From NCBI GenBank assembly GCA_963793305.1, contig CAWBZV010000010.1, positions 96,001-160,000 of the forward strand: 64,000 nucleotides of DNA, written 5' to 3'. This DNA comes from an uncultured Gemmatimonadales bacterium (GTDB taxonomy: Bacteria; Gemmatimonadota; Gemmatimonadetes; Gemmatimonadales; Gemmatimonadaceae). Every line of letters starts with the position of its first letter. Position 1 is the first letter of the stretch. Positions 5,824 through 39,150 of this stretch are shown in pieces. Made by a program: the position numbers and the translations under genes. Below the pieces are notes generated by a model. That model made no database searches. It was not told the origin of the DNA and saw only the letters and a program-made list of their open reading frames with translations.

Positions 5824-5864
5824 AGCCGGGGGACACCTGACAAAGCGCACGGGAAACGCCGACT
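5824..5864. promoter_or_regulatory. Tandem island operator boxes (hemG-like / hsp20 divergent region)
   Basis: AGCCGG-GGGACAC-CTGACA at 5824 and weaker CGCACG-GGAAACG-CCGACT at 5846 (+22); TGTCAG half-site at 5869. Confidence 0.6.
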
Positions 5865-5917
5865 GTGGTGTCAGTCGCTGTGAGTTACTGTCCAGTCGTA
5901 ACTCAACTGGAGGTTGT

Positions 5918-6376
5918 ATGTTTACCACCACTCTGCAACGCCGGTTCTTCCCACGCGAAGCCGACGCACTCTCGACGCCATTTGGGCGGCTGTTTCCAAG
6001 GGCGCTGACGTTCGAGCCAGAGCTCGTGACCTATCCCGCGGCCGAGGTCGTAGATGCGGAGAAGGAGTTCATCGTGACCCTCGAGGTTCCGGGACTCGTG
6101 AAGGACGACGTCACGATCAATTTCGAGGACGGTGTCCTCTCGATCGCTGGTGAGAAGAAGGAAGAGGCGAAGGACGAGAACCAGAAGTACTATGTGTTCG
6201 AGCGGTCGTACGGCGCTTTCCAGCGCGCGTTCACGTTCGCCACGCCGGTCGATGTCGAGAAGATCGTGGCGACGATGAAGCACGGCGTGCTGACGCTCCA
6301 CCTGCCGAAAATCACGGCCCAGAAGGAGCTCGGGAAGAAGATCCTGATCAGCGAGACGCCCGCAGTCAAAGCGTAA
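5918..6376 (+). CDS. Hsp20/alpha-crystallin small heat shock protein
   Basis: GGAGG RBS before ATG 5918; LEVPGL, GVLSIAGEK, ERSYGAFQRAF and GVLTLHLPK. Confidence 0.93.
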   Translation: MFTTTLQRRFFPREADALSTPFGRLFPRALTFEPELVTYPAAEVVDAEKEFIVTLEVPGLVKDDVTINFEDGVLSIAGEKKEEAKDENQKYYVFERSYGAFQRAFTFATPVDVEKIVATMKHGVLTLHLPKITAQKELGKKILISETPAVKA

Positions 6377-6389
6377 GCTCTACTTACCC

Positions 6390-6422
6390 GCGCGCGGAGC
6401 AGGATCGACTTGCCCCGCGCGC
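6390..6422. terminator. GC-rich hairpin between the convergent hsp20 and USP genes
   Basis: GCGCGCGGAGCAGG-ATCGA-CTTGCCCCGCGCGC, an imperfect inverted repeat with no U-tract. Confidence 0.45.
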
Positions 6423-6482
6423 CCTTGGCGTCGCTGCTGGCGATCGCCGATCGCCAAGGCTGAACGACTCGTCATCGCATCG

Positions 6483-7352
6483 TTAGTCGCGGCGTGCCGG
6501 TGCCACTATAACCATGCACCGCTCAGCGTGCAGGAGCTCTGCCGCAACCGTCCCTCTGCCGTGCTTCCCGACACCCATCAGGTCGGCGTCCATGCGTTTG
6601 GCGTATGCGATCACCTCTTCCGCCGGACTCCCGGAGCGGCGAGCGGTCTTGATCTCAATACCCGGCGGCACCTCGAGCTGATCGATCATCGACGAGAACA
6701 GATCGCTGACCGCATCGCGATACGATAGGCCCTCGTCCCGACCGGTGAGCAGCGGGTCGAACGCGGGCGCGACGTGAAGGAGTGTCAGTACGCCGGGCAC
6801 CGCAAGACAGTCGAGCGCCGCCTGCGCCGCGGCGAGACTGGCCTGGCCGAAGTCCGTGCCGACCACCGCGTTCCGAGGCAACGTCGTGACCCACTCCGGG
6901 ACGGCGATCACCGGCACCGTCGAGCGCGCGGCAATGTGCAGCGAGGTCTCCTCGCCCAGGACACGCTCGATGGTATGATGTTGTCCGATGCCGATCACGA
7001 CCGCGGCCACCTTGTCGTGATCCGCGCCGGCGGCGAGGGCATCGGGGACGTGCCCACCAACGACTTCGACGGGCCATTCGTACTCGCGCCCCAGGACGCT
7101 CTGGATGCGGCGGCCGACATCCTCTCTCGCGCGCGCGACGCGGTTCGTCGCCCGCTCATCGGGATAGAGATCCATGCCAGCGAGATAGAGCGGGAGCGGC
7201 TCGAGCACCGTCGTCACATGGATGTCGTTCCCATGCCGACGGCTCAGCGCCTCGGCAACGCGGATGGCGCCCGCCGCATCCGCACGGCCGTCGAGCGCCA
7301 GCAGCACCGGCGCGCCAGCCCGTTCAGTAGTCGAGAGTCGTGTCGCAGTCAT
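6483..7352 (-). CDS. Universal stress protein (tandem USP)
   Basis: PVLLALDG, VVGTDFG and ADLMGVGKHGRG. Confidence 0.88.
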   Translation of the reverse strand: MTATRLSTTERAGAPVLLALDGRADAAGAIRVAEALSRRHGNDIHVTTVLEPLPLYLAGMDLYPDERATNRVARAREDVGRRIQSVLGREYEWPVEVVGGHVPDALAAGADHDKVAAVVIGIGQHHTIERVLGEETSLHIAARSTVPVIAVPEWVTTLPRNAVVGTDFGQASLAAAQAALDCLAVPGVLTLLHVAPAFDPLLTGRDEGLSYRDAVSDLFSSMIDQLEVPPGIEIKTARRSGSPAEEVIAYAKRMDADLMGVGKHGRGTVAAELLHAERCMVIVAPARRD

Positions 7353-7410
7353 CGGTCCATCCTCGGAGTGAGTGAGTACCCACAGGATGGCGCGTGGGGC
7401 GCGATGGGTC

Positions 7411-7473
7411 TGTCAGGGGCCCTAAGCGAATGCGTAGGGGATACTCGGACGCAAACGTGGCAACCCCCTGACG
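7411..7473. promoter_or_regulatory. Triple operator array at 22-bp period (USP / BON-USP divergent region)
   Basis: TGTCAG-GGGCCCT-AAGCGA (7411), CGTAGG-GGATACT-CGGACG (7433) and ACGTGG-CAACCCC-CTGACG (7455). Confidence 0.65.
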
Positions 7474-7507
7474 TTGTGCGGCGCGACGACGGCCGACATT
7501 CAAACCC

Positions 7508-7744
7508 ATGCGATCCGACATTGCACTCCACGCCGCCGTCCGCACAGCCCTGCGAGGGGTACTCGGCCCCGCATCGATGCGGGTCGGCGTCACGGTGGTC
7601 GACGGAAGCGTGACCCTGAGTGGTGATGTGGACGCGTCCGATGAGCGGATCAATGCCGCCTGCGCCGTCCGGCGCATCGCCGATGTGCGGGCTCTGGCCG
7701 ACGGCATTCATGTCACACACCCGACATATGCGCACCCCAACTGA
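7508..7744 (+). CDS. Single BON-domain protein
   Basis: MRSDIALHAAV...VGVTVVDGSVTLSGDV...AVRRIADVRAL. Confidence 0.75.
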   Translation: MRSDIALHAAVRTALRGVLGPASMRVGVTVVDGSVTLSGDVDASDERINAACAVRRIADVRALADGIHVTHPTYAHPN

Positions 7745-8570
7745 TGGCGGCGTCCTCGTGGCGTCGCATTATGGCGATGGATCGGACGCGGCCGCGCGGC
7801 TCGCCTCGGCCTTCGCCGCCCGGCGACACGTCCCGATCGAAGCGCTGGCGGTCGTCGAGCCGATCGCGCCCGATCTCGCCGCGTACTCGCCGAATTTCGT
7901 GGCGCTGGAGGCCGAGCGGAATCGCTGGTTGTACGCATCCGCGCCCCACGATCTCCCCGTGGTCATTCAAGAGGGGCGTCCAGCGGAACGTATCGCCGCG
8001 CGCGCCAAGGCGATTGGCGCGACCCTCATCGCGATGGGGATCGGACACCACGACGTCGTGAATCGATTGTTGGGCGTCGAAACAGCAATCGCCGTGCTGC
8101 ATCGCGCGTCGGTGCCAGTGCTGGCCGCGCAACCGAGAGCGATGGCCCCGATGCGGTCGATCGTGATCGCTACCGACTTCAGCCCGGCCGCGCAACACGC
8201 CGCGCAGCTCGCCATGACGCTCGCGTCGGACGATGTGGCGCTGCACGTCGTGCACGTGTGGCCGTGGATGGACCTCGGTGGGTCCAACGCCCCAGTCTGG
8301 CGCCACGTCTATCGGGCCGGGGTACAGGCGAAATTCGACCAGTTGATTCGATCCCTGGATCTGCCGCCCAACGCCTCGATCTCGCTACACCTGGAGCGTG
8401 GAGCGGCCCAGCGGGTGATTCGCTCGATCGCGACGACGCATCACGCGGATCTCATCGCGCTGGGCAGCCATGGGAAAGGGTTCGTCGATCGCCTGATGCT
8501 GGGGAGCGTGGCGGAGGCAGTGCTCCGCCAGGCCGACTGCTCCGTCTTGATCGCACCCCCCGCCGCGTAA
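7710..8570 (+). CDS. Universal stress protein (tandem USP)
   Basis: SIVIATDFSPAA and ADLIALGSHGKGFVDRLMLGSVAEAVLR. Start is 7710 or 7728. Confidence 0.9.
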   Translation: MSHTRHMRTPTDGGVLVASHYGDGSDAAARLASAFAARRHVPIEALAVVEPIAPDLAAYSPNFVALEAERNRWLYASAPHDLPVVIQEGRPAERIAARAKAIGATLIAMGIGHHDVVNRLLGVETAIAVLHRASVPVLAAQPRAMAPMRSIVIATDFSPAAQHAAQLAMTLASDDVALHVVHVWPWMDLGGSNAPVWRHVYRAGVQAKFDQLIRSLDLPPNASISLHLERGAAQRVIRSIATTHHADLIALGSHGKGFVDRLMLGSVAEAVLRQADCSVLIAPPAA

Positions 8571-9156: not shown

Positions 9157-9197
9157 AGCCGGCGATCCCCCGACACGACGTGCGGCAATACCCGACG
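9157..9197. promoter_or_regulatory. Tandem operator boxes upstream of a BON gene
   Basis: AGCCGG-CGATCCC-CCGACA (9157) and CGTGCG-GCAATAC-CCGACG (9179, +22). Confidence 0.6.
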
Positions 9198-9728: not shown

Positions 9729-10143
9729 GCGAGCGCTGACGCTGGCCGCACTCGTGATCGGTTGTGGCCACGCGTATACGCCGAGAACGCGCGAGTTCAC
9801 GATCACGACCGTGCCGCTGCTTGTCACAGAGCTCGCGCCGACTTACCCGTTTCTGGCCAAGGACTTCGCGAAAGGCGGCGTCCTCGACGGGAAGGAAGTG
9901 TACGCGTTCGAGCCGAGCACGCTCACGGTCTACGCAGGCGACACGCTGGCGCTGACGTTCATCAACCCCGAGGACGACGCGCACTCGTTCGTCCTGAGCG
10001 ATTTTGCCCTGAGCTTGCCGGGCCAATCGGTTACCCATGCGACCTACGTTGCGAAAGAGCCGGGGCTGTACCCGTTTCGGTGCGCGATTCCGTCGCACCT
10101 GCCGTCGATGGTTGGCGAACTCGTCGTGCTCTCCGTCCGGTAA
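9664..10143 (+). CDS. Cupredoxin-domain (type 1 Cu) lipoprotein; start uncertain
   Basis: Lipobox-like RRALTLAALVIGC, FEPSTLTVYAGD, HSF and C-terminal YPFRCAIPSHLPSMVG (C-H-M ligands). Confidence 0.78.
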   Translation: MMPWKPQCHHRSRRVFAQSGVRRALTLAALVIGCGHAYTPRTREFTITTVPLLVTELAPTYPFLAKDFAKGGVLDGKEVYAFEPSTLTVYAGDTLALTFINPEDDAHSFVLSDFALSLPGQSVTHATYVAKEPGLYPFRCAIPSHLPSMVGELVVLSVR

Positions 10144-10174
10144 TCCCTCACAGAATTCAAGGCTTCGCCCGACT
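10134..10174. promoter_or_regulatory. Tandem operator boxes upstream of the USP-USP-ppsA-pfkA operon
   Basis: CGTCCG-GTAATCC-CTCACA (10134) and TTCAAG-GCTTCGC-CCGACT (10156, +22). Confidence 0.5.
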
Positions 10175-10243: not shown

Positions 10244-11170
10244 ATGCCCGCAGCCGAACTGCTCATCTCCACCAAGCCCGTGGCGGCCGGCCAGTTGCCG
10301 CTTGCTGACGGCGTCCTGTTGGCCACCCAAGGCGGCTCTGGCTCCGACCCGGCCGCGCGACTGGCGCATTGTTCTCCACCCGGCGCCAGGTTCCCATCGA
10401 GGCGTTGACCGTCCTCGAGCCGTTCACCTCAGAAGTTCTGGCGTACGCTCCGAGTACCTACGACCTCGACCGGCAACGTCGCGAGGGCGTGACCGAGGCC
10501 GTTCAAGCACAGCTCCGCCGCACGGCTAACGCTGAGAACGTCCCTCTGGTCATCGAGGAAGGCCTCGCGGCGGACTGCATCGCCGGCCGGGCCAAGGCGC
10601 GTGGCGCCGCGCTCATCGCAATGGGTATCGGCCGCCACGACCCCATCGATCGACTGCTGGGCGTCGAACCCGCCATCGCCGTGTTGCACCGGACGTCGGT
10701 GCCGGTTCTCGCCGCTTCCCCGGGTAGCCGGCCGGTGTTGCGCTCGATCGTCATCGCGACGGATTTCAGCCCGGCGGCACTGCGTGCGGCTCGACTCGCT
10801 TTGGTGTTCGCCGCCGATGATGTCACCGTGCACATCGTGCATGCGTGGCCGTGGATGGATCTGGGCGGTTCTGGTGCGCCGACGTGGTTCCACGTCTACG
10901 AAGCCGGCGTCCAGGCATTGGCTGACGAGAATGGTTCGCTCGCTCCCGCTCCCACCGCACGCGAAAGTCGTGACGCATCTCGGGCACGGCGAGGCCGAAA
11001 AGGTCGTCCTCGAAGTCGCGAATGCGAATTGGGCCGACTTGATCGCGCTCGGCAGTCACGGTCGCGGCCTGTTCGATCGACTGACGCTCGGCAGCGTCGC
11101 CGAAGGCGTGCTACGGAAGGCGCAGTGCTCCGTGCTGATCGCGCCGCCGACACCGACGGAGAAGGAGTAG
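10244..11170 (+). CDS. Universal stress protein broken by two frameshifts (~10365, ~10920); sequencing error or pseudogene
   Basis: Three frames join into a close paralog of 7710..8570: GVLLATQGGSGSDPAARLA, then SIVIATDFSPAA...HAWPWMDLGGS, then ADLIALGSHGRGLFDRLTLGSVAEGVLR. Confidence 0.8.
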
Positions 11171-11181
11171 AGGAGGCCACG

Positions 11182-11970
11182 ATGATCACCAACGGCCACA
11201 TTGACCCGTGCGATGGACGAGCCGGCGTGCTGATCGCGACAAACGCCGGCCCCGCCTCGGTCGTGACAATGCGAATGGGACTGGCGCTCGCCGAGCAATG
11301 GCGAGTGCCAGCCACCGTGGTGACGGTGGCGCCATCCGACGTTGTCAAAATCAAAGAACGTCTGGCGTTCCTCGCTGGCGAAGAACACGAGATCCCAGTC
11401 TACGAGATTCGCGGAGCCATCGGCCCGGCCATAGCGGCCGCCGCCGAGCAGTGGGGCGCGGCATTGGTCGTCGTCGGCTTCGGCACGGGAGATCACCGAC
11501 TGGCCACGGACATCGTGCGGCATGCGCGTCGCTCTGTGCTCGTCGTGTCGCCTTCCGAGCTGGGGTCGATCGGACGGGTGATGCTCACCGCCGATTTCGG
11601 CGGGTCGACCATCGAAGCCGATCAGTGCGCGCTCTCGCTCCTCGAGTCGGACGGGCAGGCGGAGCTCATTCACGTCACGCCCGCGCTCCAGCTCGCGCCC
11701 GATATCTATCAGGTCTGGCGCCGGACGTACGACAACGCGGTCACCGAGCTGCTCGATCAGACGCGCGCCGCGCTCCCGCATCGCCCGGGGTCGTCGATAC
11801 CGAGTCGGGTCGCGGTTGGCGACGCCGCGCGCGTGCTCCTCGACATCGCCCGTCGCGAGCGCGTCGACCTCATCGCGCTCGGCCGGCACGCGCGGCCGAA
11901 CGCGAGTCTGGGTCCCGTGCTCGAATCGGTGCTGCAGCAGGCCCCGTGTTCGGTGCTGGTGGCGCCATGA
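11182..11970 (+). CDS. Universal stress protein (tandem USP)
   Basis: AGGAGG RBS; GVLIATN, VMLTADFG and VDLIALGRH...CSVLVAP. Its stop overlaps the ppsA start (ATGA). Confidence 0.85.
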   Translation: MITNGHIDPCDGRAGVLIATNAGPASVVTMRMGLALAEQWRVPATVVTVAPSDVVKIKERLAFLAGEEHEIPVYEIRGAIGPAIAAAAEQWGAALVVVGFGTGDHRLATDIVRHARRSVLVVSPSELGSIGRVMLTADFGGSTIEADQCALSLLESDGQAELIHVTPALQLAPDIYQVWRRTYDNAVTELLDQTRAALPHRPGSSIPSRVAVGDAARVLLDIARRERVDLIALGRHARPNASLGPVLESVLQQAPCSVLVAP

Positions 11971-15299: not shown

Positions 15300-15303
15300 T
15301 ACT

Positions 15304-18794: not shown

Positions 18795-18835
18795 AGTCAG
18801 CCGCACCCTCGCGTCGTGTCAGGGGATCACTGACA
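18795..18835. promoter_or_regulatory. Operator: perfect palindrome plus an upstream half-box
   Basis: TGTCAG-GGGATCA-CTGACA at 18817-18835, with AGTCAG 22 bp upstream (18795), between divergent operons. Confidence 0.8.
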
Positions 18836-24385: not shown

Positions 24386-24426
24386 TGTCAGGCATTGCCC
24401 GACACGGTGAGCGGAGTCCCTGGACA
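24386..24426. promoter_or_regulatory. Tandem operator boxes (ldt / DUF4389 divergent region)
   Basis: TGTCAG-GCATTGC-CCGACA (24386) and TGAGCG-GAGTCCC-TGGACA (24408, +22). Confidence 0.72.
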
Positions 24427-28560: not shown

Positions 28561-28602
28561 TGTCGGCTAAGGGCCTGACAGCGCGTCGGGGACTTGCTGA
28601 CA
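28561..28602. promoter_or_regulatory. Tandem operator boxes upstream of USP-DUF5335
   Basis: TGTCGG-N8-CTGACA (28561) and CGTCGG-GGACTTG-CTGACA (28584); the right half-sites are 22 bp apart. Confidence 0.75.
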
Positions 28603-29730: not shown

Positions 29731-29771
29731 TATCGGGTAGTCGGCGACAGCGTGTGAGGCATCACCTGACA
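29731..29771. promoter_or_regulatory. Tandem operator boxes (BON operon / flavodoxin divergent region)
   Basis: TATCGG-GTAGTCG-GCGACA (29731) and TGTGAG-GCATCAC-CTGACA (29753, +22). Confidence 0.7.
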
Positions 29772-30308: not shown

Positions 30309-30575
30309 ATGTCACGACTGCTCGCTTTCATCATGATCGCGGGCTGCTGGGCCACCAGCGCTGCGCAGGTTCCCACGCCACCCGATGCCAATGATCCGCC
30401 AGGCCGGGTCGGACGCTTGTCGTTCATCGAAGGCGCGGTGTCCTTCCGGCCGGCCGCCGGGGACACGTGGGCGATACCACAGCCGAACCGAGCGGTTACG
30501 ACCGGCGATGAGCTGTGGGTGGATGTGTCCAGCGTCGAGACCGTGCCGGGCGTGCTGTCGGTGAAGTGCGGGTAG
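30309..30575 (+). pseudogene. N-terminal fragment of a secreted FecR/DUF6600-type protein
   Basis: Signal peptide, then DPPGRVGRLSFIEGAVSF...NRAVTTGDELW, ending abruptly. Confidence 0.55.
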
Positions 30576-30639
30576 ATAATGGCGGCTTCGGTCTCGTTGC
30601 TGCCCGCGACACAGAGAACCGGACCCGCGCTCGCGTCAT

Positions 30640-31015
30640 GCCACGTGAGTTGTCGACCGGGGCGGCGGACGATCTCGTACGGGCAACGGAGCTCGCGCGC
30701 GAGATGGTCATGCGCTACGGCATGGACGCGACCGTTGGCAACGCGGTCTATCGCGACGGGTCGATTGCGCCGGAATCGCGACTGTACAGCGAGCAGACGG
30801 CGCGCGATATCGAGTCCGCCGTCCGGGGCTTGCTGCAAGGGGCGCTCGATCGCGCCATTGCGATTTTGACGCTCAACCGGACTGCGCTCGACGACGGCGC
30901 GAAGCGCTTGCTCGACCGCGAGACGCTGACGCGCGACCAACTGCCGTCCGTCACGCCGGCGCCGGAGGAAGAGGCCCCCCGCGTCAGTGTCAGCGTCAGG
31001 GAACCCCTGACATAG
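30640..31015 (+). pseudogene. C-terminal fragment of an FtsH (peptidase M41) protease
   Basis: ELSTGAADDLVRATELAREMVMRYGM...YSEQTARDIESAV...LLDRETL, with no AAA domain or HExxH upstream. Confidence 0.75.
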
Positions 31016-31034
31016 AACGCGGTGAGCCCCGACG
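30994..31034. promoter_or_regulatory. Tandem operator boxes upstream of the nirK-like gene
   Basis: CGTCAG-GGAACCC-CTGACA (30994) and AACGCG-GTGAGCC-CCGACG (31016, +22). The first half-site is the last of three hexamers, CGTCAG TGTCAG CGTCAG (30982-30999). Confidence 0.75.
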
Positions 31035-31067
31035 CCGCAGGGGTTCGCGGTTCGCGATTGTTGGACC

Positions 31068-32075: not shown

Positions 32076-33958
32076 CATACACCAGGCTGAGCTCGATGGC
32101 AGCCGGAGGAAACGAGCGACCCCGGTATTCGACACTACTGCCAGTGGCTGCGGCGGTCGCGCTCGGTGCTGGCGGCGCCCTGTGGGTCTCGCCCGCCACG
32201 CGATCAATGGCGGTCGAAATCTGGGAGCTCGGCCTCGCCGCCATCGGAGCACCGTTGGTATGGCAGACAGTCCGAGGGCTTTTCGCGCGACGCTTCGCGG
32301 CGGATATCGTCGCCTCTTTGTCGATCATTGCGGCGTTGATCTTTCTTCAACCGTTCGCTGGTCTCTTGATCGTGCTGATGCAGAGTGGCGGCGAGGCACT
32401 CGAGCAGTTCGCCGCCGGCCGCGCATCGGCGGCCGTCCGCGCACTCGAAGCCGCGGCGCCGAATGTGGCCCACCGATTGATCGGCAATGGCGTCGAGGAC
32501 GTGTCCGCCGACGTAGTGGCGGTCGGCGACATGCTGTTGATCCGCCCGGGTGATCTCGTCCCTTGCGACGGACTCGTCGTGCACGGGCGCTCACATGTCG
32601 ACACGTCGCGCTTGACCGGGGAACCGATTCCCGTCAGCGCCGAACCAGGCACACGGCTGCTGAGCGGAAGCCTCAACGGCGAGGGCCCGCTTGCGGTGCG
32701 CGTGACGGCGCTGGCCCGGGAAAGCCAGTATGCCCGTATCGTCGATCTCGTCCGGTCGGCGCAGGCGAGCAAGGCGCCGCTCCAACGACTCGCGGACCGG
32801 TACGCCATCTGGTTCACGCCACTGACGCTCGCCGCGTGCGCGGTGGTCTACGTCCTCACGCATGACGCGATCAGAGTACTCGCCGTCCTGGTCGTCGCGA
32901 CGCCGTGTCCGCTCATTCTCGCGGCGCCGGTCGCCATCATCGGCGGCATCAATCGCGCCGCGCAGCGCCAGATCATCGTGCGCCACGGCGGCGCGCTCGA
33001 ACAACTCGCCGGCGTGAACGTGATGGTGTTCGACAAGACGGGCACGTTGACGGTCGGCCAGCCGACCGTGCGTCGGGTGGTGCCCGCGCCAGGCGAGGAT
33101 GAGGCGACGGTACTCGGATTGGCCGCGGGAGTCGAGCGCGGATCGAGTCACCTCCTGGCGCGCACCGTGGTAGAGGCCGCCGAACACCGGGGTCTCGCCG
33201 TCAGGACCGCCGACGATATTGTCGAGGTTCCAGGTCGCGGAGTGACTGGGACGGTGGACGGTCACCGCGTCACAGTCGGATCGCGCGCGTTCGTCGTCGA
33301 GCGCCATCCGGGAACGGCACCCGCCATCGCGACGCTTGACGCCGGGACAAGCGCGCTGCGCGCTTACGTCGTGATCGACGGCCGGGCCGGCGGGATGATC
33401 GAGTTCGCCGATCAGTTGCGGCCCTCCGTTACGAATCTCGTCACTGATTTAGGCCGACTCGGCATCGAGCGCACCATCCTATTGTCTGGTGACCAAGAAC
33501 GGTACACGCAGGATATCGCCTTGGCGTCCGGCATTCGTGAGGCACATGGCGGGCTCCTTCCCGCGGACAAAGAGCGCATCGTGCGCCAACTCGGCCGCGA
33601 CGGCAATCGGGTGCTCATGGTCGGCAATGGGACGAACAATGCCCCGGCGCTCTCCAGCGCCGCGGTCGGCGTAGCGCTTGCCGGCCACGGCGGCGGGATC
33701 GCCGCCGAGGCCGCCGACGTCGTGCTGCTGGTGGATGACGTATCGCGCGTCGTCGACGCCATCCGCATCGGCCGCCACACCGTCCGCATCGCGAAGGAAA
33801 GCATCTGGGCCGGACTCGGCCTCAGCGCGGCGGCCATGGTGTGCGCGGCATTCGGTCTGATCCCGCCAGCAGTGGGCGCTGGGCTGCAAGAAGCGATCAA
33901 TGTCGCGGTGATCGTCAACGCGCTGCGTGCGTCGGTGAAACCCGGATACCACGGCTGA
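32072..33958 (+). CDS. Heavy-metal P1B-type ATPase (TPCP, P1B-5-like) with Asp->Asn changes in conserved motifs
   Basis: LTGE, ATPCP, DKTGTLT and SSHLLA. The hinge reads MVGNGTNNAPAL and the last TM reads QEAIN. Confidence 0.88.
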   Translation: MTYTRLSSMAAGGNERPRYSTLLPVAAAVALGAGGALWVSPATRSMAVEIWELGLAAIGAPLVWQTVRGLFARRFAADIVASLSIIAALIFLQPFAGLLIVLMQSGGEALEQFAAGRASAAVRALEAAAPNVAHRLIGNGVEDVSADVVAVGDMLLIRPGDLVPCDGLVVHGRSHVDTSRLTGEPIPVSAEPGTRLLSGSLNGEGPLAVRVTALARESQYARIVDLVRSAQASKAPLQRLADRYAIWFTPLTLAACAVVYVLTHDAIRVLAVLVVATPCPLILAAPVAIIGGINRAAQRQIIVRHGGALEQLAGVNVMVFDKTGTLTVGQPTVRRVVPAPGEDEATVLGLAAGVERGSSHLLARTVVEAAEHRGLAVRTADDIVEVPGRGVTGTVDGHRVTVGSRAFVVERHPGTAPAIATLDAGTSALRAYVVIDGRAGGMIEFADQLRPSVTNLVTDLGRLGIERTILLSGDQERYTQDIALASGIREAHGGLLPADKERIVRQLGRDGNRVLMVGNGTNNAPALSSAAVGVALAGHGGGIAAEAADVVLLVDDVSRVVDAIRIGRHTVRIAKESIWAGLGLSAAAMVCAAFGLIPPAVGAGLQEAINVAVIVNALRASVKPGYHG

Positions 33959-33959
33959 C

Positions 33960-34537
33960 TCACACAACGGCGCTGCCGACAGCCTGTCGGGCCATAGCGG
34001 ACAGACGGTAGACGCGGCCACCTCGCGCGGCGAGCGAATGCTCGACGGTTATTTCATCCGGATGCGCGGCCGCCACATGGGCACCAACCGATTCGGCGAA
34101 CGCGAGCACATCGTTCGCGTCCGTCCCCTTTCGGATCGGCACCAGGATATGCATCCCTCGGCTGCCCAACGTCTTGGCGTACGACACCAGGTTGAGCGCG
34201 TCGAGGACTGCCTTGACGTACGATCCCGCGCGAGCGGCGTCGGCAAACTCACCGGACGGTGGATCGATGTCGAAGCATACCCAGTCGGGCTGCCGCGGTG
34301 CGCTCGCCCGGCTCGCCATCACGTGTACCGCAATGCAGCCCATGTTGACCAGCGTCAGCTGCGTGAGCAAGGAACCGCCGACCACGTACTCCGTGAACGC
34401 GCGCGTCTCGGTCTCATGAGCGATCCGCTTGGTCGGCGTATGGCATGGGGGGTGAATGCTTCTTTCAGAAACTGGTACCCAAGGGTATGCCGCCCGGGAT
34501 GCGACACGGCGATCGGCAATTCCCCGGTGTGCTTCAT
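33960..34537 (-). pseudogene. LigD-type primase/polymerase domain remnant
   Basis: LVNMGCIAVH...PDWVCFDIDP...KTLGSRGMHILVP...RGGRVY, then truncated; the upstream part is out of frame. Confidence 0.7.
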
Positions 34538-34544
34538 GCGCCGT

Positions 34545-35171
34545 TCAGCGTATCCAGCTCAGCGTGACAACCGGCTTGCGTGGAGTCGGCGGCGCATCCT
34601 CAGTCGGAACACCGACGATGATCGCCGCGAACGCGTGAATGTCCGCGGGGATGCCAAGCTCCGCTTTTGTTTCCGGCTCATTCAGCGCTTTGAGCGCGAA
34701 TCCAATGCAACACGTGCCCAACCCCTCCGCGCACGCCGCCAGCATCAGGTTCTCGGCCGCCAGCCAGCAGTCCGCGGAGACGAACTCGCCAGTCGGAGTT
34801 GCGCCGATGACGACCAGCGTACCGGCATCATAGAAGATATTGAACGCCGGGTCGCCAAACGGTGAGGCGAGACCGTCACCGGGAGAGCCGGGCTGTTTCA
34901 GCACATTGCCGTGTCGCAATGCCTCCGCGCGGGCCATCCCCTTCGCCCGGTCGGACAGTCGCGCGAGCACCGCGCGATTCTGCACGACAATGAACCGCCA
35001 CGGCTCTTCGTGCATGGCCGTCGGCGCGCGCACCGCAGCATCGAGCAGCGCCCGCAACTGACCCTCGTCAATCGGATCTGTCTTGTACGATCGAACCGAG
35101 CGCCGCCGGTAGATGAGATCGACCAGGTCGCTGTGCGCCTCCGGCTCCCTGACATTCGTATGCATGGTCAT
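34545..35171 (-). CDS. Nitroreductase-family protein
   Basis: IYRRRSVRSY, APTAMHEEPWRFIVV and AAENLMLAACAEGLGTCCIG. Confidence 0.9.
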   Translation of the reverse strand: MTMHTNVREPEAHSDLVDLIYRRRSVRSYKTDPIDEGQLRALLDAAVRAPTAMHEEPWRFIVVQNRAVLARLSDRAKGMARAEALRHGNVLKQPGSPGDGLASPFGDPAFNIFYDAGTLVVIGATPTGEFVSADCWLAAENLMLAACAEGLGTCCIGFALKALNEPETKAELGIPADIHAFAAIIVGVPTEDAPPTPRKPVVTLSWIR

Positions 35172-35184
35172 TGGTGGCTGGGCC

Positions 35185-35640
35185 TCATACGAGGATGCCG
35201 GACTCTGCGATTCGGACTTCACTCGTAACGCCCCGCACTCCGCCCACGCACTCGAGCGCACGCTCGACCGCGTCATTCGCGCGCGCCGAAGGGACCGTGC
35301 CGCCGAGCGTCACCCAGCCGTCCTCGACCCGGATCGTCACGTGGAGCAGCCCACCCGCGACCGCCGCCGGCAACGCCGCCACGATCGCATGCGCAATCGT
35401 CGTATCACTGAGCGGCCGCGTAGCCTCGCCCACCACGTGCAATCCTTCGGCAATGGCCCGCACGCCATGCACATTGGCAATCGCGCGCTCTACCGCGATC
35501 TTCTGACTGACGGACGGAACGTACCCCGTCAACGTGATCACCCCGTCGGCGATCGTCACGCCGACCGTGCGCTGTGTCGTGCCCAGCTCGCGCTCGAGCG
35601 TGGCGACAACGTCACCATAGATCTCTCGATCCGTTCGCAT
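35185..35640 (-). CDS. Two-BON-domain protein
   Basis: MRTDREI...DGVITLTGYV and VEDGWVTLGGTV...GGVRGV. Confidence 0.85.
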   Translation of the reverse strand: MRTDREIYGDVVATLERELGTTQRTVGVTIADGVITLTGYVPSVSQKIAVERAIANVHGVRAIAEGLHVVGEATRPLSDTTIAHAIVAALPAAVAGGLLHVTIRVEDGWVTLGGTVPSARANDAVERALECVGGVRGVTSEVRIAESGILV

Positions 35641-35697
35641 TGTCTGCCTCTCGTGGCTTGATGTGACGACAAGCTAGGCACGAGTCACACGCGCGGG

Positions 35698-35738
35698 TGT
35701 CGGGCTATCGCTCGACTTCCGTCCGACATTCCCCGACG
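35698..35738. promoter_or_regulatory. Tandem operator boxes upstream of BON-nitroreductase
   Basis: TGTCGG half-box (35698) and CGTCCG-ACATTCC-CCGACG (35720, +22). Confidence 0.55.
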
Positions 35739-36190
35739 GGTGGCTCCAAGCTTCGCGATACTGTCGACGTCGTGCTGGTCGGATACCTGCGCGGTCGCGG
35801 CAGGCGCGCGGCGCTGGGCATCGGATCACTCCTCGGCGCCGTCTACGATCCGGCGCACGATCGGTTCCGAACGATCGCAAGATCGGGTCGGGACTCTCGG
35901 ACTCCCAATGGAAAGCCCTACGCGCCAAGCTCGACGAGCAGGCCAAGCGGGTCTAGCCGGCACGCGTCGATTCGTCGATCACGCCGGACGTCTGGGTCGA
36001 GCCCACATACGTTGTCGAGGTGCTAGCGGACGAGATCACGCAGTCGCCGTTTCACACGGCGGGCAAGGTCGACGGAAAGCCGGGGTATGCGCTCCGGTTT
36101 CCCCGGGTGCTGTCGCTGCGGACCGACAAGTCGCCGGCCGACGCAACGACCGAGCGAGAGATCGTGAGTCTGTACCGCATGCAACGGCGA
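35738..36190 (+). pseudogene. C-terminal OB-fold remnant of an ATP-dependent DNA ligase
   Basis: DTVDVVLVGYLRGRGRR, GSLLGAVYD, (K)IGSGLSD, PDVWVEP, EITQSPFHT and LRFPR...RTDKS. Frameshift at ~35880, in-frame TAG at ~35954, no adenylation domain. Confidence 0.78.
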
Positions 36191-36286
36191 TCTCGCCCTA
36201 ACACTGCCGCGAAGCGGTCACGGTCTCCCACCCGAACCCGAGCACGCGCACAGTGGCCGGGATTCGAATGGGAGATCCTGTCCTGC

Positions 36287-36949
36287 TTAGCCCGTCACCG
36301 TGATCAGATCCTCGACGTCGGTCACGCCGGGCGCCGACCATGCTGCGCGCTCAGCCTCGCGCCGTTCCGGCCACGACGGCACGCTACCGCGCAGCGTGAC
36401 CTTCGGCCCAATCGTCTGCACGACGATCCGGCTCGCGTCGACCTCGGCGTGCCGCTTGAGCGCCGCCTCGATCTCGGTCTTGACCGTTTGCGACGTTGGC
36501 ATACGCGGACTCACCACGATGAGATTCGTGATGCCCCGTAGGCCGACCAGAGTGCGCAGCGAGCGCTCAGCCTCACTACGCTGGTACTCGTGGTCCACTG
36601 TCCCGCCGAGCGTCGCCCATCCCTTCTCGACGGCGACGGTCACTTTCCCCCGAGGCACGAAGCTGTTCCATTCGATCAATGTCGCCGCACCCTCAGCGAG
36701 TCTCGCGTCCGTTCGCTCGTCGGCCTTGGGCAAAGCAATCTCGAGCTCCTGCGCGACCGCGCGCACGCCCTTGACGCGCTCAGCGGCCCTGAGCGCTGCA
36801 TACTTCTCGGCATAACTCGGGACCGTGCCCCGCAAGGTCACCACCCCATCCTTGGCCTTGACCCCGATCCCCTTCTCCGTGACGCTCGGCTCCCAGCCGA
36901 GCTCGGCGAGCACATCGCGTTCCAGATCCGTATCCGTTTTGATCGGCAT
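36287..36949 (-). CDS. Three-BON-domain (OsmY-like) protein, paralog of 28915..29574
   Basis: AGGAGG RBS; KTDTDLERDVLAELGWEPSV...KDGVVTLRG...AAWSAPGV. Confidence 0.92.
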   Translation of the reverse strand: MPIKTDTDLERDVLAELGWEPSVTEKGIGVKAKDGVVTLRGTVPSYAEKYAALRAAERVKGVRAVAQELEIALPKADERTDARLAEGAATLIEWNSFVPRGKVTVAVEKGWATLGGTVDHEYQRSEAERSLRTLVGLRGITNLIVVSPRMPTSQTVKTEIEAALKRHAEVDASRIVVQTIGPKVTLRGSVPSWPERREAERAAWSAPGVTDVEDLITVTG

Positions 36950-37008
36950 ATCGCCTCCTATTGTGAGTACTATGGCGATTGCTATTTAGATCAGGCCGCG
37001 GTCAATCG

Positions 37009-37049
37009 TGTCAGGGGATCCCGGTAATCGTGTGCGGAATTCTCGGACA
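37009..37049. promoter_or_regulatory. Tandem operator boxes upstream of the BON gene
   Basis: TGTCAG-GGGATCC-CGGTAA (37009) and TGTGCG-GAATTCT-CGGACA (37031, +22). Confidence 0.7.
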
Positions 37050-37068
37050 TGGTGCTGACACAGCAAGA

Positions 37069-37100
37069 ACCCCCCGCACCGATCGCTCAATGCGGGGGGT
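37069..37100. terminator. Strong hairpin, terminator-like
   Basis: ACCCCCCGCA-N12-TGCGGGGGGT, a perfect 10-bp stem. Confidence 0.55.
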
Positions 37101-37321
37101 CCTTCAGCTGGTAGCTGTCGATCGTTCGTTCGGCACCACCGAAATGGTCTGATCGATAGCCGTGACCGTCGTCGAACGGGTTCGCCATCGGCCTTTTTCA
37201 CGACGCTGTGACCAGCGACCTCACAGCCTGCGCACCATTGCCGAACAGCTGATGCGTATGCGCCCATGGTATCCCGTACCAAGAACGCACCACCAATATC
37301 GCCACTTTCGTATGGCACGCC

Positions 37322-37362
37322 AGTCAGGGATTCCCCGAAACACGCAAGCGGTTCTCCCGACA
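37322..37362. promoter_or_regulatory. Tandem operator boxes with no clear adjacent target CDS
   Basis: AGTCAG-GGATTCC-CCGAAA (37322) and GCAAGC-GGTTCTC-CCGACA (37344, +22). Confidence 0.6.
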
Positions 37363-37509
37363 GATAACGCGTCGCGGCATGGTATTCATCATGATGCCGT
37401 GAACCAGGAGTGGAGATGAAGACCGATGCGACCGCTGGGATAGTCACACTTCGCGGGGCAGTACCGAGTTACGGCGAGAAGATTGCTGCGGAACGCGCCG
37501 AGCACTAAC

Positions 37510-38488
37510 ATGCGGCCGCGAATCCTTCTGATCACAACGGCGGTCATCGTGCTTGGGCTCGCGAGTGTCTGCGTGCTCTATGCGCACGACCTCGGACGCG
37601 CGCGTGCGCGCCTTGCCGGCCGTAGTCAGATAGTCGAGACGTCGCTGGGCACCGTGGAGTACGCCGTACTGGGTGCGGGCGAACCGATACTCGCTGTCCA
37701 CGGCGCGAGCGGTGGCTTTGACCAAGGCATCGATCTGACCGGCGCGATGACTGGACACGGCTATCGGATTATCGCTCCCTCCCGTTTCGGCTACCTTCGC
37801 TCGTCGATGCCCGCTGGCGCGACAACCGCCATGCAGGCTGATGCCTACGCCCAACTGCTCGACCACCTCGGCATCGACAAGGTGTTCGTCGTCGGCATTT
37901 CGGCGGGTGCCTGGTCGGCCAGTCAGTTCGCGATCCGATATCCGCAACGGTGCCGGGCGCTTGTGCTCCTCGTTCCCGCGAACTACCTGCCGCCGGGGAT
38001 GTCTATACACGGCGGCGCCATCGCGAGGGCGATCTTGAGCTCCGATTTCGTCGCCTGGGCAGCGCTCAAACTCATGCCGCTTGCGCCAGGTGGGATGACC
38101 CGGAGCCTGCTCGGCACGGACGATGCCCTTGTGCGCTCATCAGAGCCCAGCGAGAGGGCGCGAATTCAGCAAGTGCTCGACCATCTGCTGCCGATAACAC
38201 CGCGCGCCGCGGGGACACAGTTCGAACGTCCGGACAGCCGCCACGCGCGAGCCGTACGCGATCCAACGTATCGTCTGCCCTGTCCTGACGATCAGTGCCG
38301 ATGACGATCAATTTCACACGAACGACCGAGCTCGGTATATCGCGGCCACCGTCCCGGACGGCCGCGATATTGTGTTTCCGACCGGCGGCCATGCGTTGGT
38401 CGGCCACTACACCGACGCCCTGGCTGACGTGATGACTTTTCTCCAGAGAGGTGCGGGGAGCGGCCCGGGCCGCGCGCGCGGCAGCTGA
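37510..38488 (+). CDS. Alpha/beta hydrolase with N-terminal TM; +1 frameshift at ~38225
   Basis: VHGASGG, APSRFGY and GISAG. The corrected frame continues FDVRTAA...CPVLTISADDD...PTGGHAL. Confidence 0.82.
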
Positions 38489-38718
38489 CGGGCCTCTAGC
38501 CTTCGACATGATCACCGTCCGAGTCACGCAAGCGGTCCCGCGCCTGAATGGCCTGGCCGTCTTCGCGCTGGGCCTCTAGTTCTGGCCGAGTCGCTGGCCA
38601 AGCACATTGAAACCCTCGCCGGCGCCGCACGATAGCGCGGCCCACAGTGACGGTCCACAGCGGCGTTTTTCGCATCTCATGTCATGAAGCGCTTCGAACA
38701 CGGCCCAAGCACACGATA

Positions 38719-38946
38719 GTGGATCCGTTGACTGTCGCATTTGGAGTAGCCGTGGCCCGTCGGCGGCGCGCGATGGGACTCTCGTGGCGCGGGCTGGGCA
38801 CGCGGTGCCGTGTGAGTGCGAACACCATACGCAACGTGGAGCGAGCCGTTGGATGCAGTCGACTGGATATCGTCGCGCGCGTCGCCGAGGGTCTGGGGAC
38901 GCCCCTGTGGCGACTGATCCGCGAGGCTGAAAAGAGTCACCGGTGA
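38719..38946 (+). CDS. XRE-family HTH protein
   Basis: FGVAVARRRRAMGLSWRGLG...VSANTIRNVERA...LDIVARVAEGLG. Confidence 0.75.
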   Translation: MDPLTVAFGVAVARRRRAMGLSWRGLGTRCRVSANTIRNVERAVGCSRLDIVARVAEGLGTPLWRLIREAEKSHR

Positions 38947-39109
38947 GGACGACCACGCGATGGGCCGTTGGCTACTCGTCTCTCAGCGCCGCAACGGGAT
39001 CGAGGTTCGCCGCACGTCGCGTGGGTAAGTAACTCGCGACCAATGCCACACACGCCAGGATGGCTCTTGTTCATCCTATTCCATGAACGCGGGAACGTCC
39101 GACACGTAG

Positions 39110-39150
39110 CGTCAGGGACTCCCCGACACGTTCGCGGCTTCGACCCGACA
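39110..39150. promoter_or_regulatory. Tandem operator boxes upstream of a BON gene
   Basis: CGTCAG-GGACTCC-CCGACA (39110) and TCGCGG-CTTCGAC-CCGACA (39132, +22); another CCGACA at 39099. Confidence 0.75.

What the first reader, a model, noticed from the sequence alone, without database searches (positions are those of the whole stretch)
5824..39150. Candidate new regulon operator: YGTCRG-N7-CYGACA in 13 promoter regions, in tandem arrays 22 bp apart
Seen: the best copies are TGTCAG-GGGATCA-CTGACA (18817), CGTCAG-GGAACCC-CTGACA (30994), TGTCAG-GCATTGC-CCGACA (24386), CGTCAG-GGACTCC-CCGACA (39110), CGTCGG-GGACTTG-CTGACA (28584) and TGTGAG-GCATCAC-CTGACA (29753). Each of the 13 regions (5824, 7411, 9157, 10134, 18795, 24386, 28561, 29731, 30994, 35698, 37009, 37322, 39110) has a second, sometimes third, degenerate box or half-box 22 bp away, about two helical turns. 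I saw no full copy beyond 40 kb. Known: cooperative binding to primary + secondary boxes is how the NarL-family regulator DosR works, and the half-site resembles the GacA/UvrY box TGTAAG-N6-CTTACA. It is not the DosR box sequence and does not fit CRP/FNR/CooA N6 geometry. Inference: one NarL/FixJ-type response regulator, possibly the partner of the kinase at 1-2106 and encoded left of the window, controls the whole island. I do not recognise this operator from a described regulon.
Basis: partly seen in the sequence, partly recalled or inferred. Interest (0 to 1): 0.9.

Follow-up and report, generated by a model that had tools for sequence, protein, structure and literature searches.

The report
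Operator of an oxygen-stress gene island
A 19-base palindromic DNA signal sits at a fixed distance in front of dozens of stress and low-oxygen genes in an uncultured soil or peat bacterium (Gemmatimonadaceae) and is most likely the landing site of one two-component regulator encoded next door, a layout that mirrors the tuberculosis dormancy switch with different parts.

Summary
The motif is a 19-bp palindrome, consensus TGTCAGGGAWTCCCTGACA. It is enriched in the window (19 strand matches against 5.2±2.7 in shuffles). All 13 listed regions score at least 8.5 bits on a weight matrix. An unseeded 7-mer count ranks its half-site first.

Boxes form arrays 22-23 bp apart. They lie in fixed register with -10-like hexamers, which puts box centres near -42 and -64. 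This matches the published DevR/DosR architecture of -42.5 and -63.5.

The predicted NarL-type regulator exists 1.3 kb left of the window, with a near-perfect box in its own promoter. A box lies within 2.5 kb of the orthologous regulator gene in 20 of 35 Gemmatimonadota loci.

The adjacent kinase carries a FixL-like haem-PAS domain, so oxygen is the likely signal. The regulator is not an orthologue of DosR, FixJ, NarL or UvrY, and the operator matches none found in my searches.

Verdict: a real, undescribed regulon and a new member of a known kind. Binding, activation and the signal are inferred, not shown.

The parts
1..2106 (+). 3' 2.1 kb of the sensor kinase gene. The gene starts at C10:95706, 295 nt left of the window. 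Domain order is PAS-GAF-PAS(FixL-like haem PAS)-GAF-HisKA-HATPase_c. In this assembly it is broken by a 1-nt frameshift at about 599-601.
   Evidence: Pfam hits are. tblastn of the intact 827-aa orthologue (L007) switches frame between residues 319 and 320. The central PAS matches FixL haem domains at E=6e-23, with the His aligned.
5824..5842 (.). Box (9.0 bits) between a flavodoxin-like gene (4787-5791, minus strand) and an Hsp20 gene (plus strand).
   Evidence: Score. A GATACT hexamer lies 21 nt to the left, and ATG 5791 follows 5 nt after it.
7411..7451 (.). Half-box at 7411 plus a box at 7433 (8.6 bits), between two divergent Usp genes (6483-7352 minus, 7620-8570 plus).
9157..9197 (.). Two boxes 22 bp apart (9.3 and 8.5 bits) between an ORF ending at 9123 (minus) and a BON-domain gene (plus).
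10134..10174 (.). Box (15.9 bits) plus a half-box at +22. It lies upstream of the run Usp, PEP synthase, phosphofructokinase, phosphoribosyltransferase and erythromycin-esterase-like genes (10369-17306, plus strand).
18795..18835 (.). Half-box plus a primary box (26.3 bits) upstream of the HlyD-MacB transporter operon (18869-22167, plus strand).
   Evidence: Score. A CATTGT hexamer lies 20 nt after the box, and ATG 18869 follows 7 nt later.
24386..24426 (.). Primary box (24.6 bits) plus a secondary box at +22, in the divergent promoter of an L,D-transpeptidase gene (22807-24351, minus) and a DUF4389 gene (24487-25137, plus).
   Evidence: GATATT lies 20 nt to the left, and ATG 24351 follows 8 nt later.
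28561..28602 (.). A 20-nt variant box (8-nt spacer) plus a box of 20.1 bits, upstream of the Usp-DUF5335 gene (27252-28505, minus).
29731..29771 (.). Two boxes 22 bp apart (9.0 and 19.9 bits) between a BON gene (28915-29685, minus) and a flavodoxin-like gene (29805-30287, plus).
   Evidence: ATG 29805 lies 7 nt after the hexamer.
30994..31034 (.). Primary box (26.0 bits) plus a half-box at +22, upstream of a NirK-like copper oxidase gene (31068-32075) and a P-type ATPase gene (32072-33958), both plus strand.
33930..34003 (.). Their status is unclear.
35698..35738 (.). Half-box plus a box (11.8 bits) between a BON gene (35185-35640, minus) and a small ORF (35772-36026, plus).
37009..37049 (.). 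Two boxes 22 bp apart (10.6 and 9.9 bits) upstream of a three-BON-domain gene (36287-36949, minus).
   Evidence: This gene has the deepest cover by RNA-library contigs.
37322..37362 (.). Box (17.4 bits) plus a half-box at +22, upstream of an alpha/beta-hydrolase gene (37483-38304, plus).
39110..39150 (.). Primary box (24.5 bits) plus a half-box at +22, upstream of a BON gene (39182-39676) and a ketopantoate-reductase-like gene (39531-40688), both plus strand. This is the right edge of the island.
38647..38946 (+). Small XRE-type HTH gene, the rival candidate binder.
   Evidence: Pfam HTH_31. No homologue at E<=1e-8 was found in 40 other genomes of the family.

Best explanation
The boxes are the operator of one NarL/FixJ-family response regulator. 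It is encoded at C10:94080-94742, 1.26 kb left of the window, in a Gemmatimonadaceae genome.

Proposed mechanism:
1. A cytoplasmic kinase (PAS-GAF-haem-PAS-GAF-HisKA-HATPase, its gene running into window 1-2106) senses falling oxygen through a FixL-like haem-PAS domain and phosphorylates the regulator.
2. A regulator dimer binds the 19-bp palindrome TGTCAGGGAWTCCCTGACA.
3. Further dimers load cooperatively onto degenerate neighbouring boxes 22-23 bp away (a 3-4 bp gap, two helical turns, the same face of the DNA).
4. The promoter-proximal box is centred near -42/-43, where a -35 element would lie. From there the regulator recruits RNA polymerase and switches on the gene. Many of these genes appear to have little or no leader.
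5. The regulator also activates its own gene and the divergent Usp-kinase operon.

The regulon covers about 70 kb on C10 (boxes from C10:67247 to window 39150) plus a second island on C23. It includes many Usp and BON proteins, Hsp20, flavodoxin-like proteins, pyruvate kinase, PEP synthase, phosphofructokinase, a nitroreductase, a NirK-like oxidase and a P-type ATPase. Left of the window it also covers a NiFe hydrogenase, multihaem cytochromes, a Rieske/cytochrome b unit and CcmEF.

Shown: the motif, its enrichment, its spacing, its register with -10-like hexamers, its linkage to the regulator gene across genomes, and the domain make-up of both proteins. Inferred: who binds, that binding activates, cooperativity, and oxygen as the signal.
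For: Motif and clustering:
- Genome-wide, 34 sites score at least 16 bits and 27 of them lie on C10 and C23, which are 4.7% of the genome. Without the 16 seed sites, 12 of 18 do.
- Boxes precede unrelated gene families, and their flanks are not alike.

Spacing.

Promoter register:
- A NANNNT hexamer starts 20-21 nt after the box end in 40 of 144 flanks and 43-44 nt after it in 42 of 144. No other single offset exceeds 10.
- For island sites of at least 9 bits the counts are 27 and 27 in 96 flanks, against 2.7 per offset elsewhere.
- The 192 non-island sites show no peak: 22 and 17 in 384 flanks, against 12.4 per offset.
- In 7 of 13 window promoter calls a start codon of a long ORF follows the hexamer by 5-9 nt.

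Regulator:
- It has REC and GerE domains.
- A 25.1-bit box lies 51 nt before its start, with TATTCT 21 nt from the box.
- It has a single copy in the genome at E<=1e-60.
- A box of at least 14 bits lies within 2.5 kb of the orthologue in 20 of 35 Gemmatimonadota loci and in 1 of 7 loci from other phyla.
- In L013, L022 and L038 the box precedes the kinase-regulator operon.
- Orthologues occur in 34 of 38 same-family genomes.
- The rival XRE gene occurs in 0 of 40.

Sensor:
- The FixL haem-PAS match is E=6e-23 with the His aligned.
- The same PAS, 49-54% identical with the His kept, is in the kinase next to the regulator in L013, L022 and L038 and in L007.

Precedent: in the DevR tgs1-Rv3131 promoter the P and S boxes are 3 bp apart, at -42.5 and -63.5, and their helical phasing is required (PMC3177182, passages read). 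DosR contacts sigma region 4 and alpha (PMC13486717, abstract).
Against: - There is no binding, expression-change or transcription-start data.
- The weight matrix was seeded from the islands, and C10 and C23 are paralogous (83% identity over 25 kb). Site counts, and the register peaks at 20-21 and 43-44 nt, are therefore partly redundant.
- 15 of 35 orthologous regulator loci have no box of at least 14 bits within 2.5 kb.
- With the strict pattern, all 200 other genomes of the phylum have at most 5 strand hits against 19 in this one. Regulator-bearing genomes are barely above the reversed-pattern control (55 hits against 20 in 38 genomes, my sums).
- G098 has no regulator homologue at E<=1e-35 yet has 5 hits, which look like chance.
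- The kinase is of the HisKA type, not HisKA_3. In more distant loci a HisKA_3 kinase sits directly before the regulator and may be the true partner.
- In this assembly the kinase gene is frameshifted.
- The box's outer half, CTGACA, resembles a -35 hexamer placed 3-4 bp too far upstream, so part of the register could reflect promoter sequence itself.
Confidence: 0.72

Rival explanations
1. The boxes are a real operator, but a different protein binds them. One candidate is the small XRE-type HTH protein encoded in both islands (window 38647-38946 and C23:9480-9770). Another is a regulator encoded elsewhere in the genome.
For: XRE-type proteins bind palindromes as dimers. The gene is present in both islands and a third copy lies on C5. 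No binding data exist for any candidate.
Against: No homologue at E<=1e-8 was found in 40 other genomes of the family. The operator, in contrast, is found beside the response-regulator gene in 20 of 35 loci across two orders. No box precedes the XRE gene. Phased arrays of degenerate boxes at -42 and -64 are the published habit of a NarL-family regulator.
Confidence: 0.08
2. The response regulator binds the boxes but represses. It occludes the -35 region until a signal releases it.
For: The proximal box covers the place of a -35 element. Its outer half, CTGACA, resembles a -35 hexamer.
Against: The CTGACA hexamer lies 20-21 nt from the -10-like hexamer, which is too far for an ordinary sigma-70 spacer (established knowledge). 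The promoters therefore look activator-dependent. The same geometry is used for activation by DevR/DosR. Positive autoregulation fits the box in the regulator's own promoter.
Confidence: 0.1
3. The motif has no regulatory role. It is a relic of repeated duplication of stress genes together with their promoters, or a composition effect of GC-rich DNA.
For: Usp and BON genes are multi-copy, and a whole second island exists. A loose iteration of the matrix drifted onto codon-periodic CGTCG-type coding sequence.
Against: None of the 100 shuffles reached the observed count. Boxes precede unrelated families, including HlyD, an L,D-transpeptidase, flavodoxin-like proteins, a copper oxidase and the regulator itself, and their flanks are unrelated. 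The palindrome, the 22-23 bp spacing and the register to -10 hexamers are absent from non-island matches. The motif is conserved in MAGs whose regulator is only 54-89% identical.
Confidence: 0.02
4. It is the site of a CRP/FNR-type oxygen regulator, as proposed for the similar low-oxygen (lxa) island of Burkholderia cenocepacia.
For: Gene content resembles the lxa locus: six Usp proteins, an alpha-crystallin, transporters, a cation ATPase and two-component systems (PMC3721108, passages and table read).
Against: The lxa motif is a 4-bp inverted repeat with a 6-bp spacer that shares TGA-N6-TCA with Anr/Fnr sites. The element here has 9-base arms around a single central base. No cNMP-binding or Crp-type HTH protein was found among the 82 and 119 ORFs scanned on C10:56-138 kb, C23 and the C3 locus.
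Confidence: 0.03

Closest known systems
DevR/DosR dormancy regulon of Mycobacterium tuberculosis (and OsdR of Streptomyces coelicolor)
   Same: A NarL-family regulator that is autoregulated. The regulon is rich in Usp proteins, Hsp20, nitroreductase, glycolytic enzymes and a P-type ATPase. The boxes are palindromes of about 19-20 bp in tandem, with primary and degenerate secondary sites 3 bp apart in helical phase, at -42.5 and -63.5 (PMC3177182). Here the centres lie near -42/-43 and -64/-65. OsdR likewise controls Usp, nitroreductase and pyruvate phosphate dikinase genes around its own gene (PMC5069765).
   Different: The operator sequence differs. The Dev box half-site is G4G5G6A7C8T9 and the OsdR consensus is AGGGCCGATCGGCCCT. 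Here it is TGTCAGGGA, a W, then TCCCTGACA. Of DosR's base-reading residues, K182 and N183 are D and T here. The sensor has a FixL-like haem PAS and a HisKA domain. The phylum is different.
FixL-FixJ oxygen-sensing two-component system of rhizobia
   Same: A haem-PAS kinase with HisKA and HATPase domains next to a REC+GerE regulator. The PAS domain aligns to FixL haem domains at E=6e-23, with the His and a downstream Arg aligned.
   Different: The kinase scores 167.6 bits against a FixL cut-off of 850, and the regulator 75.5 against a FixJ cut-off of 255. The kinase has two GAF domains and a second PAS. It controls a large structural regulon directly, whereas rhizobial FixJ works through a short cascade (that last point is recalled, not from a call).
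UvrY/GacA/SirA box
   Same: This is the most similar operator sequence found. The consensus is the 18-nt TGTAAG-N6-CTTACA, and the csrB half-site TGTGAGAGA matches TGTCAGGGA at 7 of 9 positions (PMC4682653). The regulator's second-best NCBIfam hit is the UvrY/SirA/GacA model.
   Different: The spacing differs by one base (18-nt even palindrome against 19-nt odd palindrome). The UvrY site lies near -183 and serves sRNA genes. The NCBIfam score of 161.5 is below the cut-off of 280.
lxa low-oxygen-activated locus of Burkholderia cenocepacia
   Same: A roughly 50-gene island of Usp, alpha-crystallin, transporter, ATPase and two-component genes, with one shared promoter motif at 17 intergenic points. 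It is induced by low oxygen and needed for anoxic survival (PMC3721108).
   Different: Its motif is Anr/Fnr-like (TGA-N6-TCA) and its candidate regulators are CRP-family proteins. Here the operator is a different palindrome and the candidate is a NarL-family regulator.

Membership tests
DevR/DosR orthologue group | Response regulator with a REC domain and a GerE (NarL-type) DNA-binding domain | tested here: met
   Pfam Response_reg at 1.1e-28 and GerE at 3.6e-16. PDB DevR 3c3w matches at E=4.9e-34, but VraR (1.6e-37) and NarL (2.3e-34) match equally well.
DevR/DosR orthologue group | Base-reading residues K179, K182 and N183 of helix alpha-9 (PMC13486717) | tested here: not met
   In the alignment to 3c3w, DevR has EKTVKNY and the query has AKTVDTY. 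The first Lys is kept, K182 is D and N183 is T.
DevR/DosR orthologue group | Operator with GGGACT-type half-sites | tested here: not met
   The count matrix of 32 island sites gives TGTCAGGGAWTCCCTGACA.
DevR/DosR orthologue group | Tandem primary and secondary boxes in helical phase, with the proximal box at about -42.5. This is a working-mode feature, not a test of ancestry. | tested here: met
   compared. Positions here are inferred from -10-like hexamers, not from mapped transcription starts.
FixL/FixJ | Haem-binding PAS domain with a proximal His | tested here: met
   The alignment to FixL haem domains places the query's RARH His on FixL's RSRH His. It is conserved in 3 further kinases. 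That this His ligates haem is recalled knowledge, and haem binding itself was not tested.
FixL/FixJ | Scores above the NCBIfam equivalog cut-offs for FixL and FixJ | tested here: not met
   FixL model 167.6 against 850. FixJ model 75.5 against 255.
UvrY/GacA/SirA | Score above the NCBIfam equivalog cut-off, and an 18-nt inverted repeat TGTAAG-N6-CTTACA | tested here: not met
   161.5 bits against 280. The spacer here is 7 nt, not 6.
NarL | Score above the NCBIfam equivalog cut-off | tested here: not met
   151.9 bits against 250.
CRP/FNR-controlled low-oxygen island (lxa type) | A TGA-N6-TCA type motif and a CRP-family regulator in the island | tested here: not met
   The motif geometry differs. 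No cNMP-binding or Crp HTH domain was found among the ORFs scanned.

The most novel reading that the evidence does not exclude
Gemmatimonadota have independently assembled a 'dormancy switch' equivalent to mycobacterial DosRS from other parts. A FixL-type haem sensor is coupled to a NarL-family regulator that is not a DosR orthologue. Its own 19-bp operator is placed with base-pair precision at -42 and -64, often on leaderless genes. In this lineage it drives a duplicated regulon of more than 100 kb that ties Usp, BON and Hsp20 stress proteins to a hydrogenase, multihaem cytochromes and glycolysis. If so, one sensor decides how an abundant, mostly uncultured soil and peat phylum survives anoxia.
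Probability: 0.45. Interest if true: 0.65.

Novelty: new member of a known kind. Interest (0 to 1): 0.5.

Why it matters
Gemmatimonadota are common in soils and peat but rarely cultured, and I found nothing in print on their transcriptional regulons. Four searches returned no paper on this operator or on a Gemmatimonadota stress regulon.

If the reading is right, three things follow. It gives a testable sensor, regulator, operator and target map for how such bacteria ride out anoxic spells. It shows that the DosR promoter design (tandem phased boxes at -42.5 and -63.5) recurs with a different regulator and a different DNA word. It also supplies a weight matrix that can annotate the regulon in related metagenome-assembled genomes.

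It does not reveal a new principle of regulation.

Tried and rejected
- Iterating the weight matrix genome-wide at a low threshold drifted onto codon-periodic CGTCG-type coding sequence and was abandoned. The un-iterated 16-seed matrix was used afterwards.
- My 'coding' and 'intergenic' labels rest on longest-ORF gene calls that overshoot gene starts. They wrongly mark many promoter boxes as coding, so I make no coding-versus-intergenic claim from them.
- Rfam at gathering score found nothing in the window.
- Counting the strict pattern across 200 genomes of the phylum did not separate regulator-bearing genomes from the rest at low counts. Background is 0-5 hits per genome.
- An alignment of the small ORFs downstream of the tandem boxes at window 35772, C23 and C3 gave no credible homology. 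My start choices there are probably wrong.
- Earlier notes of this scan held nothing relevant.
- RNA-library contigs: stretches without cover, and two contig ends that run into adapter at 36936 and 36967, cannot be read as transcript ends or as silent genes.
- A resemblance to other TGTNA-type palindromes (GlnR/TnrA, recalled) was considered. The spacing differs and no MerR-type gene was seen in the islands, so I dropped it.

Full report
**What the window is.**
The window is C10:96001-160000 of a 5.72-Mb, 26-contig, 65% GC assembly. Completeness is 92% and contamination 5%. The closest public relatives of its proteins are metagenome-assembled genomes titled Gemmatimonadaceae or Gemmatimonadales.

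Bases 1-40000 hold a dense set of stress and energy genes:
- at least seven Usp genes and five BON-domain genes;
- Hsp20 and two flavodoxin-like genes;
- pyruvate kinase, PEP synthase and phosphofructokinase;
- a phosphoribosyltransferase and an erythromycin-esterase-like protein;
- a HlyD-MacB transporter and an L,D-transpeptidase;
- a NirK-like copper oxidase, a heavy-metal P-type ATPase and a nitroreductase.

Yes. The pattern with up to one mismatch gives 19 strand matches, against 5.23±2.73 in 100 dinucleotide-preserving shuffles, and none of the shuffles reached 19.

I built a weight matrix from 16 good copies and did not iterate it. An iterated version drifted onto coding periodicity. 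With the un-iterated matrix:
- All 13 listed regions score 8.5 bits or more.
- The window has 16 sites of at least 9 bits in 1-40000 and one in 40001-64000.
- Genome-wide, 34 sites reach 16 bits and 27 of them lie on C10 and C23, which are 4.7% of the assembly. Leaving out the 16 seeds, 12 of 18 do.

Because the matrix was seeded from the island, I also ran an unseeded test. Among 7-mers in the island's non-coding and 5' stretches, compared with the rest of the genome, CCTGACA/TGTCAGG ranks first (11 against 1.23 expected). CCCGACA, CCCTGAC and TCAGGGA are third to fifth.

The spacer is not free. The count matrix of 32 island sites reads TGTCAGGGAWTCCCTGACA, with G2, T3 and G6 and their mirror positions nearly invariant.

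**Spacing.**
- Among pairs of boxes of at least 7 bits lying 19-120 bp apart, 6 of 17 in this genome are 22 or 23 bp apart.
- In related loci 3 of 9 are, and others lie at 44, 63 and 64 bp.
- A half-site test gives 9 and 7 half-boxes at 22 and 23 bp, against 0.05 expected per cell. No other offset between 12 and 89 reaches three in either cell.
- Most secondary boxes are weak. They fall below 3 bits on the full matrix and keep one half-site, usually the distal CCCGACA type.

**Register with promoters.**
- From the end of a box, a NANNNT hexamer starts 20-21 nt away in 40 of 144 flanks and 43-44 nt away in 42 of 144. No other single offset exceeds 10.
- For island sites of at least 9 bits the two peaks hold 27 and 27 of 96 flanks, against 2.7 per offset elsewhere.
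- The 192 matches outside the islands show no peak.
- Taking the hexamer as -12 to -7, box centres lie near -42/-43 and -64/-65.
- In 7 of 13 window promoter calls the start codon of a long ORF follows the hexamer by 5-9 nt. This suggests leaderless or nearly leaderless messages.
- These counts are not independent. Tandem boxes share one hexamer, and C10 and C23 are paralogous.

**The regulator.**
Left of the window, at C10:94080-94742 on the minus strand, lies a 220-aa REC+GerE response regulator. It is divergent from a Usp gene that is followed by the kinase gene entering the window.

A 25.1-bit box lies in this divergent promoter. TATTCT lies 21 nt from it on the regulator's side. A -10-like hexamer lies 43 nt from it on the Usp side, behind a degenerate second box.

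The genome has one copy of the regulator at E<=1e-60. Orthologues at that threshold occur in 34 of 38 other genomes of the family and in 4 of 96 genomes of the neighbouring family. These tallies include the unpublished genomes G157 and G057. Without them the figures are 33 of 37 and 3 of 95.

In 35 Gemmatimonadota loci fetched around orthologues, 20 have a box of at least 14 bits within 2.5 kb of the gene, where about 0.016 per locus is expected by chance. Of 7 loci around 40-43% identical regulators from other phyla, 1 does. L011 and L012 come from one MAG.

In the nearest relatives (L007, L008, L011, L015) the box or array lies 33-87 nt before the gene. In L013, L022 and L038 it precedes an operon in which a HisKA_3 kinase gene comes before the regulator.

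The rival in-island regulator is a 99-aa XRE-type protein. It has no homologue at E<=1e-8 in 40 other genomes of the family.

**The sensor.**
- In L007 the kinase is one 827-aa ORF with the order PAS-GAF-PAS-GAF-HisKA-HATPase_c.
- Its central PAS matches FixL haem domains at E=6e-23. The His of FixL's RSRH motif aligns to a His, and a downstream Arg also aligns.
- The same PAS, 49-54% identical and with the His kept, is in the kinase directly after the regulator in L013, L022 and L038.
- So the linkage of regulator and FixL-like kinase holds in 5 of the 8 loci I annotated: G000, L007, L013, L022 and L038. It does not hold in L020, L025 or L040.
- In this assembly the gene is split by one extra base at window 599-601.
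- PEP synthase is also split near 13185-13210, and the MacB gene on C23 is in three pieces. I therefore suspect assembly indels rather than decay, but I could not check reads.

**What it is not.**
- In the alignment to DevR (3c3w), DosR's base-reading K182 and N183 are D and T.
- NCBIfam places the regulator below every equivalog cut-off: MctR 166 against 300, UvrY/GacA 161.5 against 280, NarL 151.9 against 250, FixJ 75.5 against 255.
- The Dev box core, the OsdR consensus and the Burkholderia lxa motif are all different words.
- The nearest word is the UvrY/GacA 18-nt repeat. Its csrB half-site agrees at 7 of 9 positions, but it has one base less at the centre and lies near -183.

**What it works like.**
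For the DevR tgs1-Rv3131 promoter, PMC3177182 (passages read) states the following. [quoted passage not shown] Moving them out of phase abolishes secondary-site binding and most activity. At least two boxes in tandem are the hallmark of the regulon. The arrangement found here is the same. DosR at that position contacts sigma region 4 and the alpha subunit (PMC13486717, abstract).

**Extent of the regulon.**
Left of the window, boxes of at least 16 bits precede an aldehyde dehydrogenase, malic enzyme, a multicopper oxidase, multihaem cytochromes next to a NiFe hydrogenase, a Rieske/cytochrome b unit and CcmE-CcmF. A weaker box of 12.4 bits precedes a BON gene.

Contig C23 (52 kb) carries a rearranged second copy of much of the island. 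25.2 kb of it aligns to C10 at 83% mean identity, and it has its own boxes. With 5% contamination I cannot say whether C23 belongs to the same cell line.

With the strict pattern TGTCRGG-N6-CYGACR this genome has 19 strand hits, and the 200 other genomes of the phylum have at most 5. The two nearest relatives have 7 and 9. The regulon is therefore conserved but unusually large here.

**Expression.**
Contigs from four metatranscriptome libraries of one peat study match parts of island genes with 0-1 differences over 200-697 nt. The genes covered include the L,D-transpeptidase, two Usp genes, four BON genes, the copper oxidase, the nitroreductase and the hydrolase. The deepest cover is on the BON gene 36287-36949.

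This shows that the organism, or a very near relative, is present in RNA libraries from peat. It does not prove transcription, because DNA carry-over was not excluded. It says nothing about regulation or about transcript ends.

**Literature.**
- Passages read: PMC3721108, PMC3177182, PMC13486717 (abstract, passages), PMC5069765 and PMC4682653.
- Searches for a description of this operator or of a Gemmatimonadota regulon found none.
- The library holds open-access papers and preprints only. Supplements were not opened.

**Verdict.**
It is a new, undescribed regulon and operator, but it belongs to a familiar kind: a NarL-family activator with phased palindromic boxes that controls a hypoxia or dormancy-type island.

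Noticed in passing
window 590-610 (C10:96599-96601): The sensor kinase gene changes frame by one inserted base, exactly between the residues matching 319 and 320 of the intact 827-aa orthologue. The site (gcgcgtcgac) is not a homopolymer run.
   Followed up: partly
window about 13185-13210; C23:36937-39026 (L004:16937-19026): PEP synthase is split into two overlapping ORFs, matching model residues 3-417 and 427-791. The MacB gene on C23 is in three pieces. Together with the kinase this makes three broken genes in about 110 kb, which points to assembly indels.
   Followed up: no
contig C23 (L003-L005) against window 8088-43432: A rearranged second copy of the island: 25.2 of 52.4 kb aligns at 65-90% identity. 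It has its own boxes but no second regulator gene. It could be a true duplication or a co-binned relative, since contamination is 5%.
   Followed up: partly
window 5791, 9123, 10098, 18869, 24351, 29805, 35772: Start codons of long ORFs lie 5-9 nt after the -10-like hexamer. This suggests that many regulon genes are transcribed without a leader. The regulator gene itself has a 24-nt leader with a GGAGG.
   Followed up: partly
C3:567079-567120 (L006:10079-10120): A tandem pair of strong boxes 23 bp apart (25.0 and 20.9 bits) lies outside both islands, just after a DUF167 (YggU) gene. The same arrangement occurs on C23 at 24410 and 24433.
   Followed up: no
island non-coding stretches, e.g. window 24421-24432, 28597-28606, 29766-29775: A second enriched 7-mer, CACACCG/CGGTGTG (14 observed against 3.2 expected). 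Part of it arises from ACACCG directly following boxes, so the operator may extend on its promoter side.
   Followed up: no
window 38647-38946; C23:9480-9770; C5:493975-494199: A small XRE-type HTH gene is present three times in this genome. It was not found at E<=1e-8 in 40 other genomes of the family.
   Followed up: partly
window 33960-34385 (minus strand): The LigD primase-polymerase gene is only a 141-aa fragment (model positions 77-194 of 254). The C23 copy is full length (315 aa, positions 1-254).
   Followed up: no
window 20001-40000: Near-identical contigs in four peat metatranscriptome libraries of one study cover parts of at least nine island genes. Depth is highest on the three-BON-domain gene 36287-36949.
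   Followed up: partly
L013, L022, L038, L040 (loci around regulator orthologues): In more distant Gemmatimonadota the regulator gene is flanked by two kinase genes. A HisKA_3 type precedes it, and in L013, L022 and L038 a FixL-like PAS-HisKA type follows it. This hints at two sensory inputs. The genome studied here keeps only the second type next to the regulator.
   Followed up: partly
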